64,000 nt of DNA, taken from the human T2T-CHM13v2.0 reference genome, Homo sapiens. Positions within the stretch are counted from its first letter, which is position 1; the number at the start of each line of letters is the position of its first letter. The position numbers were made by a program, and so were the translations under genes. The notes beneath the pieces are model-generated. The model saw nothing but the letters and a program-made list of their open reading frames with translations, searched no databases and had not been told where the DNA came from. The DNA is taken from assembly GCF_009914755.1 (NCBI RefSeq), contig NC_060928.1, one strand, 5' to 3'. Shown here in pieces: positions 10,930-55,802 of this stretch.

Positions 10930-11205
10930 CAGACCTTGGAATCTCTTAGCTGTGTGATCTTGGACAAGTTATTTAACTCTTTGTGACCAAGGTCGCTTAT
11001 CTGCAAGTGAAAATAATAATATTATATGGACATTGTTGTGTATGTGTGTGTGTATATATATATATATATATATATATAAAATATGTATGAATGGATAATG
11101 TTCATTAGCTCTCACAATGTCACAATGTCCATATCGTTATTATTCCCATTGTTTAGAACAGTGCCTGAGACATAGTAAGTGCTGTATAAGTTGTAGCTTA
11201 CCAAT
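10930..11205 (+). mobile_element. MIR interrupted by (TG)n(TA)n and an inverted copy of itself
   Basis: MIR core 'agctgtgtgatcttggacaagttatttaac', MIR tail resumes at 11151 'gtttagaacagtgcctgagacatagtaagtgct'. Confidence 0.75.
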
Positions 11206-11939
11206 TAGCTATTAACTGGGTCAGACCCGGAAAGAGTGTTTCACCAAAAGAAGCGTGGGCCTTAGGTTGCTGCTTGACCTTGCCTATTTCTCCTAATGAT
11301 AATGTTGAAATTGTGGCCCAGATGAGTGGCCCTGTCTATTAGACTCAGCTGCTTGCTACTGGATTCCCCTGATGCTGGCCATATTTAAATACAGAAAGAC
11401 CCAATCCTGGGTCATCTAAACCACTCTGAAAGGGCATTGCCAATCCTTCTGACCAAGGTCAAGGTTGGCATGTGGGGCCTGTGCCTGCATGGGGGGCCAA
11501 ATGCCCTCTTGATTCTTCATGTCATTGCATTCATGGGCTCAAAAATGCAAGCCTTGGCTTCAGTGCAGTTCCTCATTCTCCAGAATGATGCATCAGTGTG
11601 TACTCTGAAAGGCCTTGTTGCCACCTGTCCCTGGCCTGAAGGGTCAAGATTAAGGACACCATGAAAAATATCTTGTTATGTTTAGTTTGTGTTTGACTTG
11701 GGAAATCTATAATTAGGATCACCTAGCATTATCCAGAAGAGTTATTCATGCCTTATAAACACTACCAACAGAATTAGAAGAACAAGTTTGGTCAGCAAGC
11801 ACACATTAAAACATGATGTCTTTGGTTGATAGAAAAATCTGACAAATCCTATTTCTATTTTCCAAAAGAGTGAGCAGTCTTATGAGAGAGTCTTTTGGAT
11901 CAGAAGCCTGTGTGTCTTTAAAAACATATATGGAACTGT

Positions 11940-12550
11940 GGCACCCCTGAGCTTACAAAATCTCCAGTGGTTCCCACAGCTCTTAGAATACAATTTGCAG
12001 TCCTTATCAGGGGTTATAAGACCCCTGATCTGCATTCTTTAATATGGTGGCCTCTGAACACAAGTCACTATTTAAATTAAATGCAGTTACAATTAAAAGT
12101 TTAGTTTGTTATTTTCATTGGCCTCATTTTAGGTGCTGAATAGATGCACCCATATTAGACAGCACAGATATAGAGCATCACTATAATTCCAGAAGTTTCA
12201 CCATCTTTCATTTTCTCCAGCACACAAAACTTTTTCCCACCATTACACATTTCTCCCTTCTTCCCTCTTCGCCTCTGTAACTCATCCGGTTTCAGGTTAA
12301 GTGTTACCTTCTCAGAGAGGCTTTCCTTGATCTCTCCTTCAAAATTGGGTCCCCCAATTAGTCTTTCTCATAGCAGCCTGTCCTTTGCTTTCATGCTACT
12401 TAAGATTTATGGTTATGTAGGTATTTTTGTGGGGAATGCCTGACTTCCCCTCTAAGTTGTAAGCTCATGAGGACAGTCAGTGTCAGTACTTTAACCTCAC
12501 TGTTCAACATATAGCAGGTGCTCAATCAATATTTGTTGAATGAATGCATG
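11940..12550. mobile_element. L2 3' region interrupted by a MER3-like hAT MITE (about 12030-12200)
   Basis: L2 tail 'tagcaggtgctcaatcaatatttgttgaatgaatg'; MER3-like 'ccatattagacagcacagatatagagcat'. Confidence 0.6.
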
Positions 12551-13629
12551 ATTGCCTGGGTTCTCATATGTGCCACCCCCACATGACACATTCTTTTTGG
12601 TTTTCAGAGGAGACAGAAACCTTAATTTTCTCTTTCCACATATATTTTCTTCCTCCCCTTACTCTGCTATAGGTCACACTTAAAATTCCCTTGCAATCTG
12701 CTCTTCCAAGCTAGCCCATTAGAGCCTGTCTCTGTGCCATGTCTGTGCCATAACCATGTTAATGGGATGTACAGTTTCCCTGGAAAAAAGGAAGGTATGT
12801 TGGCAGAGGAAACTAAACTTTCTTGTTCAAAGTCTATGGTTTATTTTTCATAATACTAATTGACAGGGTAAGCTATTTTATTTTTCCTATATCTATGTAA
12901 TTAATATGTCCACTTTAGAAATCAATTATCCTTGATAATTACCATTGGTGCTATGGCTATAAACTGAATGCCAGTCTTGCTAACAAACTGAATAAGACAT
13001 AATTTCTTGTTGTTCAAAGAGATGATAAACTCTAATCAGCAGCAAATTCAATCAAAACTTACTGACATCAATTGAAATCACATTAGACTTTGTAAAAAAT
13101 AGGATAATTATGCTCGTCTTGTAAGTTGCAGGTATTGTAACAACTCTAAAATGTGGGCCTGTTTGAATAAATGCTTATGTTTGCTGGCTCTACGCAAGCA
13201 GATGCAGAAATGTATAATCTGCATAAATAAATCAGGAGATTATTTTTCCCCCTTATAGCTCTTTAGTTCTATGAGATTCAATTAATTCAACTTTTTTTTT
13301 TTAATGGGCCCAGGGTAATGAGGTAAGCAGGTGTTAGTGTGTTGGCCACTGAAGCAGGATAGCCCCTGGTACAGATTTGTCACATGGGGTTACTTTTTAA
13401 ATCTCCCTTGATTATTTAGAGATAAACTTAATAGTGATTAAGATAATGACTCCTGGAGCTATGCTGGCTGGGGTCAAGTCCCAGCTCCACTGCTCAGAAC
13501 TGTGCGTCTTAGCCAAGTGTAGGGAGGATGTAGGTGCTCTGTCCCGATCCCTCTGAGTCCCTCTTAGTGGATTCACTGGGATGACCCTTACCCAATGACT
13601 GAAGAGCACAGGAATACAAAGGGCTCAGT

Positions 13630-54444: not shown

Positions 54445-54650
54445 ATCCATCCTTCCTTCGTTCCTTCGTTCCTTCCTTCCTTCCTTCGTTCCTTCCTTCC
54501 TTCCTTCCTTCCTTCCCTTCCTTCCATTTCCATTTTCCATTGGCTGCCACAGGTGACTGGATACTTGATCTAACTGAGAAGAATTTTGAAATGTGGAAGG
54601 GAGGAAGGAAGGAACAAAGAAGGAAGGAAGTGAGGGAGGGAAGGAAATGG
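54445..54650. repeat. Opposed (TTCC)n and (GGAA)n tracts
   Basis: Pyrimidine tract about 54445-54540 and purine tract about 54590-54648. Confidence 0.9.
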
Positions 54651-55194
54651 CTCTTTTCTTTCCTGTTTCACTTCCCATTCCCTCACTTCTGTGTCCTGAA
54701 CTCACACTTCCAAATCACTTCCCGTCCATGAACCACTGTCACCATCTGCTTTCAGAAGGACCCAGCCTGAGATTCTCTCTCTCTTCCTCCTGCCCTTCCT
54801 TTCTTTCTTTTTTCCCTTAGCCTTTCCTTTTTTTTGAAGTGATATTAACTTTTTTCTTAGATTAGCGGATATTTTGATCTTATTTGAATCATCTGACTGG
54901 AAGACCTAGTTCAAATACAGCAGATTTGGGTAGGTAAAATGTCAGCACTTCTTACCACTCTATCCCAGTGTCCAACCCAGTTCTGGAACATGGCTAGTGT
55001 TCAGTAAATGTCTATCCAAAGATTTTGGAAAGTGTGGGTTAACCATTATTGCCCAATCTACCAAAAACACAAGTGTAAAATGTATTTTTACATTAGCAAA
55101 GTTGGAAAGTTATATTTTCTTTTTCCTTGTCTTTCCCAGAAAAATCATTAACTTAGGTCTGCTGTTTTCTGTATTTCACTTCACATGTGGAATT

Positions 55195-55802
55195 TCAATC
55201 GTTCAAGAAGACAGGAAGGGGTGGAGAAACACTAAATATATATGTACTTACACACACACATATATATATACACATGTATATGTGAGAGTGTGAAAGTAGA
55301 TGGGTAATAGCACTGAAAAAAGGAAAAGGCTCAGGAAGGAAGGAAGGGTAGGAGGAAAAGAGAGAGAATCTTAACCTGGGTCCTTCTGAAAGGAGACTGT
55401 GACAATGGTTCATGGATGGGAAGTTTATTTGGAAGTGTGAGTTCAGGACACAGAAGTGAGGGAAGGGGAAGTGAAACAGGAAAGAAAATACACACACACA
55501 CGCACACACATATGTATGTGTATATATGTATACATATATACATATGGGTGGGTCAGTCAGCTATTGCTGTGTAAAAAACCTTAAAAATATCAGTGGCATA
55601 TAGCATACAAATTTATTTTTCATTTATGAGTCTTAAGTGATATGTGTCACACTAATGTGTATGTATATATATATACACATATATGTGTGTATATATGTAT
55701 ACATACATATACTTATATACATACATATATGTACATATATACACACACACGTGTGTGTGTGTGTGTGTTTCTCCACCCTTTCCTGTCTCCTTGAACTATT
55801 GA
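55195..55802. repeat. Composite cassette: 38-bp inverted ends, three copied local segments, (TA)n/(CA)n filler
   Basis: Base-by-base matches to 52842-52868, 54654-54847 (inverted) and 57341-57451. Confidence 0.95.

What the first reader, a model, noticed from the sequence alone, without database searches (positions are those of the whole stretch)
11006..55802. The same 'local copy wrapped in TA filler' signature recurs three times in 45 kb
Three separate loci (about 11.0-11.15, 22.7-22.9 and 55.2-55.8 kb) share the same parts: an irregular (TA)n/(TG)n tract, a 25-190 bp copy of sequence from within 3 kb, and a fold-back inverted repeat at the tract edge. Established: (TA)n tracts can form cruciforms and are fragile, and TMEJ makes templated insertions. 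Inference: either TA tracts are recurrent breakage sinks that capture neighbouring DNA, or the TA filler is itself made during repair, a route to microsatellite birth distinct from Alu/L1 tails. Repeat annotation would label these only as simple repeats, so the class is easy to overlook.
Basis: inference. Interest (0 to 1): 0.75.

Follow-up and report, generated by a model that had tools for sequence, protein, structure and literature searches.

The report
Repair-copy scars inside TA repeats
Two TA-rich repeats on human chromosome 4 contain short copies of DNA from within 2.5 kb, likely left when breaks in the repeats were patched; such patches are a known kind, and only a small minority of the TA repeats sampled carry them.

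Summary
Partly confirmed. Locus 2 (22.7-22.9 kb) holds a 60-bp copy (59/60) of DNA 1.44 kb away between TA tracts. Locus 3 (55.2-55.8 kb) is a mosaic of four local copies (27-184 bp, two inverted) separated by TA/CA filler. Locus 1 has only a 25-bp fold-back inside a dispersed repeat and no separate donor. These fit the repair-mediated duplications of Pace et al. 2009.

Elsewhere in the genome the filler alone is ordinary: 0 of 8 look-alike irregular tracts and 1 clear case in 29 unselected (TA)10 tracts had an adjacent local copy, against 0 of 30 (CA)11 tracts. Four local copies had no tract at all. Among islands between two TA tracts, 4 of 8 complexes held inverted copies against 0 of 4 CA islands (p=0.21; 3 of 4 CA islands were direct tandem duplications).

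Best reading: existing TA tracts likely break, and their self-complementary ends fold back or jump to nearby templates. Birth of the filler during repair is not excluded. No outgroup genome was available, and the enrichment over CA controls is suggestive, not significant.

The parts
10946..11036 (+). Left part of a dispersed repeat (MIR by recalled likeness) flanking locus 1
   Evidence: matches at many unlinked places; alignments
11012..11036 (+). Locus 1 left arm of fold-back
   Evidence: 6 of 1,257 background positions score as high
11037..11078 (.). Locus 1 (TG)n then (TA)13 tract
11082..11150 (-). Middle piece, possibly the repeat's own middle in inverted orientation
   Evidence: tiles between left and right parts on one copy (L016), but no preference over 21 copies, p=0.15: inconclusive
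11122..11144 (-). Locus 1 right arm of fold-back
11150..11198 (+). Right part of the same dispersed repeat
   Evidence: match to L010
22737..22816 (.). Locus 2 left irregular TA/TG/CA tract, with a 19-nt inverted copy (22783-22801) of the right tract edge
   Evidence: I4, 95%
22815..22874 (+). Locus 2 inserted copy, 60 bp, 59/60 to donor
22873..22900 (.). Locus 2 fold-back palindrome around (TA)7
   Evidence: I8; hairpin -6.9 kcal/mol for 22866-22906 with DNA parameters
24259..24318 (+). Donor of the locus 2 copy, no TA tract beside it
52842..52868 (+). Donor of piece B
54654..54847 (-). Donor of piece C, beside a (TTCC)n/(GGAA)n block
55192..55232 (+). Piece A: inverted copy of the right flank 55765-55805, 37/41
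55233..55280 (.). Locus 3 first TA/CA filler
55281..55307 (+). Piece B: direct copy from 2.44 kb upstream, 26/27
55305..55488 (+). Piece C: inverted copy from about 0.5 kb upstream, 8.8% substituted
55489..55547 (.). Locus 3 middle CA/TA filler, resembling the right tract inverted (44 matches, 6 substitutions, 2 gaps; low complexity)
55548..55658 (+). Piece D: direct copy from 1.79 kb downstream, 108/111
55659..55768 (.). Locus 3 right TA/CA/TG tract
55765..55805 (-). Right flank, template of piece A
57341..57451 (+). Donor of piece D, no TA tract beside it

Best explanation
Loci 2 and 3 are insertions of short copies of nearby DNA inside TA/CA tracts, likely scars of germline repair after an already existing TA run broke or stalled a fork. 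Shown: the copies, their donors within 2.5 kb, mixed orientations, and inverted copies of the tract's own flank. Inferred: a 3' end made of (TA)n is self-complementary, so it would fold back and copy its own flank in reverse, and it would anneal to TA runs or short microhomologies nearby on either strand. Several rounds of priming, copying and release would build the mosaic before the ends rejoin (SDSA or polymerase-theta-type templated insertion; the enzyme is untested). Ordinary slippage afterwards likely reshaped the filler. Locus 1 is likely an older, simpler fold-back of the same sort. Locus 3 may have been hit twice.
For: Anatomy. Fold-back copies include the TA edge (locus 2: I4 and I8; locus 3: piece A and the middle filler). 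Independent examples elsewhere in the genome: 4 of 8 TA-island complexes hold an inverted local copy of 33 nt or more (L083, L084, L085, L090), and 3 of 8 islands are themselves inverted copies (L084 own flank, L085 1.0 kb away, L090 1.3 kb away). With a background of one tract-free local copy per 40-90 kb (my assumption, from 4 in 343 kb), 3 of 8 has P about 3e-5 to 2e-6. The L090 donor ends at another TA tract and the L023 donor ends at a TA seed, as TA-to-TA priming predicts. Literature: TA repeats break and MMEJ-linked small duplications are enriched in TA-rich fragile regions of ecDNA (PMC13645644 section 10); fold-back inverted insertions form at breaks in yeast (PMC11724301 abstract).
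Against: No outgroup could be examined, so tract-before-copy is not shown. Unselected tracts: 1 clear case (L023) and 1 duplication that includes the tract (L018) in 29 TA loci, 0 of 8 irregular tracts, 0 of 30 CA loci; Fisher p=1.0 for 1 of 37 and 0.50 for 2 of 37. Inverted copies in TA against CA islands, 4 of 8 against 0 of 4, give p=0.21. Flanks of unselected TA tracts are no more complementary to each other than cross-paired flanks (p=0.69). A genome-wide count of inverted pairs beside an L1 TA seed gave 1 locus, the same as the non-TA control. The pure TA runs here are now 5-13 units, below the about 22 units cited for cruciforms in duplex DNA (PMC11797062). Donors of locus 2 and piece D have no TA run. 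The two-hit idea is weak: C against D divergence p=0.05; change point within C, permutation 26 of 300.
Confidence: 0.55

Rival explanations
1. Ordinary repair-mediated duplications that have nothing to do with TA. The copies arose at arbitrary breaks, and TA/CA tracts grew later by slippage from short AT-rich junction filler or lay there by chance. The window was noticed because it happens to hold two.
For: Local copies without any tract exist (L045, L049, L090 second pair, window 57435/58268). The filler is common and mostly copy-free. Pace et al. report filler of 1-68 nt at such breakpoints and do not use the words simple repeat, AT-rich or dinucleotide. TA against CA contrasts are not significant.
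Against: 2 of the window's 5 TA complexes carry long copies (P about 1e-4 to 6e-4 under my background, though chosen after the fact). TA islands fetched before their flanks were seen gave 3 of 8 inverted donors. Fold-back copies include the TA edge, so some TA was present during copying.
Confidence: 0.2
2. The TA/TG/CA filler is synthesised during the repair event by repeated fold-back priming from a seed of a few TA units, so the event creates the microsatellite.
For: At locus 1 the tract sits at the fold-back junction inside a dispersed repeat; the 9 copies fetched aligned to its flanks, and I saw no such tract in the aligned parts. The one L1 fold-back found genome-wide beside a TA seed (G000:C5:12554173) has TG/TACA filler between its arms, whereas the control fold-back has none. 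At locus 3, filler separates three of the four pieces.
Against: 8 of 8 look-alike irregular tracts have no copy within 1.5 kb, and several sit in Alu-like linkers or tails and L1-like ends (family names recalled), the known birthplaces. TA runs also expand quickly by slippage (established knowledge), so a tract at a junction can be younger than the junction. n is 2.
Confidence: 0.15
3. No double-strand break: the replication fork stalls at the TA hairpin and the nascent strand switches template several times (fork stalling and template switching, or short-range template switching).
For: Mixed orientations and several templates within 2.5 kb fit serial switching. AT hairpins inhibit Pol epsilon and Pol delta (PMC11797062).
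Against: Nothing in a finished sequence separates this from break repair. Donors lie on both sides, up to 2.4 kb away, as in the 2009 set ascribed to SDSA.
Confidence: 0.1

Closest known systems
Repair-mediated duplications (Pace, Sen, Batzer, Feschotte 2009, PMC2671141) and doublets (Thomas 2004, known here only through Pace's text)
   Same: Short copy (50-619 bp there; 60-184 bp for the main pieces here), donor within 5 kb, filler and microhomology, no poly(A) tail, occasional chimeras of two donors.
   Different: Here the filler is long TA/CA (up to 110 nt against 1-68 nt), locus 3 has four templates, and the tract's own flank is copied in reverse. The paper's main text has no occurrence of simple repeat, AT-rich or dinucleotide, and it surveyed only insertions inside transposons.
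MMEJ / polymerase-theta repair at TA repeats on ecDNA (PMC13645644, 2026)
   Same: TA repeats as break sites; small duplications under 5 kb enriched in TA-rich fragile regions, ascribed to templated insertion.
   Different: Somatic, circular amplicons, seen after FANCM loss; the word germline does not occur in the main text. Here the copies are fixed in a reference chromosome and 2-10% diverged.
TA repeats as insertion sites in plants (florendoviruses; PMC13658181 citing Geering 2014; Liu 2012 recalled)
   Same: Foreign or captured DNA flanked by TA dinucleotide repeats (14-51% of loci) and ascribed to repair of AT-rich breaks.
   Different: There the insert is viral DNA from outside the locus; here it is neighbouring chromosomal DNA in a mammal.
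Fold-back templated inverted insertions at breaks in yeast (PMC11724301)
   Same: Short inverted duplications of break-adjacent sequence, mostly about 5-34 bp, and complex multi-piece insertions (abstract).
   Different: Not tied to TA tracts in the abstract; experimental breaks.

Membership tests
Repair-mediated duplication (Pace 2009) | Inserted copy of at least 50 bp | tested here: met
   Locus 2: 60 bp; locus 3: 184 and 111 bp. Locus 1 fails (25 bp).
Repair-mediated duplication (Pace 2009) | Single donor elsewhere in the genome, within 5 kb and more than 50 bp away | tested here: met
   Genome searches gave only the local donors for the locus 2 copy and for C and D; these searches score only the best candidates.
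Repair-mediated duplication (Pace 2009) | No poly(A/T) tail of retrotransposition | tested here: met
   Read directly: copies end in TA/CA filler or the next copy.
Repair-mediated duplication (Pace 2009) | Filler and/or microhomology at breakpoints | tested here: met
   Filler between pieces; B and C overlap by 3 nt at 55305-55307.
Repair-mediated duplication (Pace 2009) | Empty site in orthologues or in a transposon consensus | not testable with these tools
   No primate relatives are held; flanks of locus 2 gave no repeat matches; flanks of locus 3 beyond 55180-55820 were not searched.
Repair-mediated duplication (Pace 2009) | Listed in the paper's Table S1 | tested here: inconclusive
   No chr4 row at about 16.0 Mb came up, but the hg18 position rests on recalled offsets, and only 30 of 143 chr4 places were read.
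Polymerase-theta templated insertion | Insert templated from break-flanking DNA, direct or inverted | tested here: met
   Piece A and the locus 2 fold-backs.
Polymerase-theta templated insertion | Dependence on POLQ | not testable with these tools
   Needs experiment; copies of 111-184 bp from up to 1.8 kb fit SDSA equally.
Cruciform-forming fragile TA repeat | Perfect (TA)n longer than about 22 units | tested here: not met
   Longest pure runs are 13 units at locus 1 and 5-7 at loci 2 and 3; threshold from PMC11797062. Past length unknown.

The most novel reading that the evidence does not exclude
Broken TA ends act as self-priming, orientation-free landing pads: repeated fold-back synthesis from a seed of a few TA units writes the TA/TG/CA filler itself while capturing neighbouring DNA. 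A share of human compound TA microsatellites would then be born at germline breaks, and hundreds of such scars would form a datable record of where TA runs broke in primate germlines.
Probability: 0.15. Interest if true: 0.7.

Novelty: new variant of a known kind. Interest (0 to 1): 0.35.

Why it matters
If the TA link holds genome-wide, it ties the somatic fragility of TA repeats (fragile sites, ecDNA) to fixed germline duplications and gives a sequence-only way to map past TA breaks. It would also bear on microsatellite life cycles, because an inserted copy splits a long hairpin-forming tract into short ones. As it stands these are two good examples of a duplication type known since 2004-2009, in an intron of an uncharacterised lncRNA with no annotated function at the sites, plus a suggestive but unproven TA-specific bias towards inverted copies.

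Tried and rejected
Assembly artefact: rejected, since the copies differ from their donors by 2-10%. Dispersed-repeat look-alikes as false donors: rejected for locus 2, C and D; A and B are short and were not found elsewhere. Fold-back flanks as a general property of TA tracts: not seen (29 TA, 8 irregular, 30 CA against cross-paired flanks). Fold-back enrichment at an L1 TA seed: 1 locus against 1 control locus, gaps up to 69 nt only. Inversion of the repeat's middle at locus 1: not supported over 21 copies (p=0.15), suggested by one. Two events at locus 3: change-point permutation 26 of 300; the old/young split (20 of 188 against 4 of 173 substitutions, nominal p=0.001) was drawn after seeing the data. 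L018 (both copies beside a tract), L061, L047 and L074 (tandem or minisatellite-like) were not counted as class members. L027/L028 and L004/L006 are the same tracts and were counted once. GA and GGAA control tracts were located but their flanks were not examined. Pace's Figure S1: part 1 of 24 and the first 3 places of each of three repeat terms showed no TA filler, too little to conclude. Thomas 2004 was not held and Liu 2012 was not found.

Full report
Setting. By the hub's annotation the window is T2T-CHM13 chr4:16,368,001-16,432,000, inside an intron-rich stretch of an uncharacterised lncRNA; one search confirms the place. No outgroup genomes are held, so all tests used the window and 94 loci (about 298 kb) from the same genome.

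What is in the sequence. Locus 2 has a 60-bp segment (22815-22874) identical at 59 of 60 bases to 24259-24318, with TA tracts on both sides. The right tract edge and flank are copied in reverse twice (22783-22801 and 22873-22888 against 22882-22900). The donor was the only non-repeat match in the genome search. Locus 3 is a 580-bp mosaic: A, inverted copy of its own right flank (37/41); filler; B, direct copy from 2.44 kb upstream (26/27); C, inverted copy from about 0.5 kb upstream (166 matches, 16 substitutions, 4 gaps); filler resembling the right tract inverted; D, direct copy from 1.79 kb downstream (108/111); filler. C and D matched only local donors. Locus 1 has a (TG)n(TA)13 tract between two arms of 25 and 23 nt; 6 of 1,257 window positions reach that score. 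It lies inside a dispersed repeat (the name MIR is recalled) and has no separate donor. The signature is therefore complete at two loci of three. Of the window's five TA complexes, two have long copies, one a short fold-back and two nothing.

Is it a class? Three samples from elsewhere in the genome were examined. (i) Unselected tracts: the first 30 of 449 anchored (TA)10 matches (29 distinct tracts) and the first 30 of 144 anchored (CA)11 matches, each with 1.5 kb on either side. One TA locus (L023) has a 62-63-nt flank piece copied once direct and once inverted amid long TA filler; one (L018) is a duplication with a tract beside both copies; no CA locus qualified after tandem arrays were set aside. 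(ii) Eight irregular tracts picked from the 37 listed for likeness to the locus 3 filler: 0 of 8 had a local copy within 1.5 kb. (iii) Islands between two tracts. From the 100 rows listed of 183 TA matches I chose by eye, before seeing flanks, 8 islands of at least 38 complex bases, skipping those that looked like Alu, L1 or MIR pieces or internal duplicates; from the 100 rows listed of 203 CA matches, the first 4 of at least 43 bases. With 2 kb on either side: three TA islands are inverted copies (L084 own flank, L085 1.0 kb, L090 1.3 kb), one complex holds a 49-nt inverted copy beside the island (L083), one island is a direct near-tandem copy (L087), one has a 7-nt fold-back only (L089) and two have nothing (L086, L088). 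Three CA islands are direct tandem duplications and one has nothing.

Statistics. Tract-free local copies numbered 4 in 343 kb, an undercount because most loci are short. Against one per 40-90 kb, 3 of 8 TA islands has P about 3e-5 to 2e-6, but 1 of 37 unselected TA tracts has P 0.12-0.26. Against the CA control nothing is significant (4 of 8 against 0 of 4, p=0.21; 1 or 2 of 37 against 0 of 30, p=1.0 or 0.50). Flanks of unselected TA tracts show no excess complementarity, and the L1-seed count was 1 against 1. So copies inside TA complexes recur in the genome and tend to be inverted, but they mark a few percent of TA tracts, and a TA-specific excess is suggested, not established.

Mechanism. 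Shown: local templates, both orientations, several templates per site, reverse copies that include the tract edge, and in two outside examples a donor that ends at a TA run. Inferred: a pre-existing TA run broke or stalled a fork; its 3' end, being self-complementary, folded back or annealed nearby; synthesis and release were repeated; the ends rejoined; slippage later remodelled the filler. Against this, the present pure runs are short (5-13 units against about 22 for cruciforms, PMC11797062 passages), two of the window's donors have no TA, and the order tract-then-copy could not be tested. Divergence differs among the locus 3 pieces (C 8.8%, D 2.7%, p=0.05), hinting at two events, but the change point inside C is not significant after permutation.

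What is known. Pace et al. 2009 (PMC2671141; abstract, parts 1, 2, 4 and 5 of 7 of the main section, term passages, part 1 of 24 of Figure S1 and searches in Figure S1 and Table S1) list 824 human proximal duplications with filler and microhomology, 20 of them chimeric, at 0.52-0.65 per Mb of transposon sequence, and do not mention simple repeats. Thomas 2004 (doublets) was seen only as described there. PMC13645644 (passages and section 10) shows breaks at TA repeats and small duplications in TA-rich fragile regions of ecDNA. PMC13658181 (passages) reports plant viral insertions flanked by TA repeats; Liu 2012 on AT repeats as traps in rice is recalled, not seen. PMC11724301 (abstract) shows fold-back insertions in yeast. 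Ten full-text searches returned no paper describing germline local duplications at human TA tracts; the library lacks most subscription papers, most of Pace's Figure S1 was not read, and bioRxiv supplements were closed.

Verdict. A real feature at two loci, best filed as a TA-associated variant of repair-mediated duplication. The sink reading is likelier than filler made in repair. Interest is moderate and depends on a whole-genome count and primate outgroups.

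Noticed in passing
window 57435-57515 and 58268-58346: A further local duplication (81 bp, 85%) with no tract beside it; it overlaps the end of the donor of piece D by 17 nt.
   Followed up: partly
window 54446-54646: (TTCC)n then (GGAA)n purine/pyrimidine blocks end 8 nt from the donor of piece C; such blocks can form triplexes and might have exposed the template (inference).
   Followed up: no
window 6460-8232: GC-rich VNTR (37-49 bp units) with a (GAGAGG)n end, an SVA-like element on the minus strand (name recalled); the RefSeq enhancer 6403-7098 overlaps it.
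   Followed up: no
window 16177-22383 and 35077-37041: About 6-kb L1-like element and a 2-kb piece 94.7% alike in opposite orientation 19 kb away (name recalled).
   Followed up: no
window 40164-40216: The one lncRNA exon in the window (40165-40240) matches the L1-like element at 18242-18294 (77%), so it is probably repeat-derived.
   Followed up: no
window 25979-26645: Closely spaced inverted pair of Alu-like copies, 81% complementary over 678 columns.
   Followed up: no
L023 (G000:C1:55547217-55550239): TA-rich expansion of well over 1 kb holding direct and inverted copies of a 62-63-nt flank piece and a palindromic 28-bp unit; the inverted pair is 100% identical, so it may be young and polymorphic.
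   Followed up: partly
L077 1380-1630: A 244-nt irregular TA/CA tract sits in the middle linker of an Alu-like element with no local copy: the same filler arising from a retrotransposon seed.
   Followed up: partly
G000:C5:12554173-12554258 and G000:C7:74676464-74676525: Two fold-back inversions inside L1-like sequence, the first with TG/TACA filler between the arms, the second without.
   Followed up: no
L091, L092, L094: Islands between CA tracts were head-to-tail duplications of tract plus flank, a likely route from a CA microsatellite to a minisatellite.
   Followed up: partly
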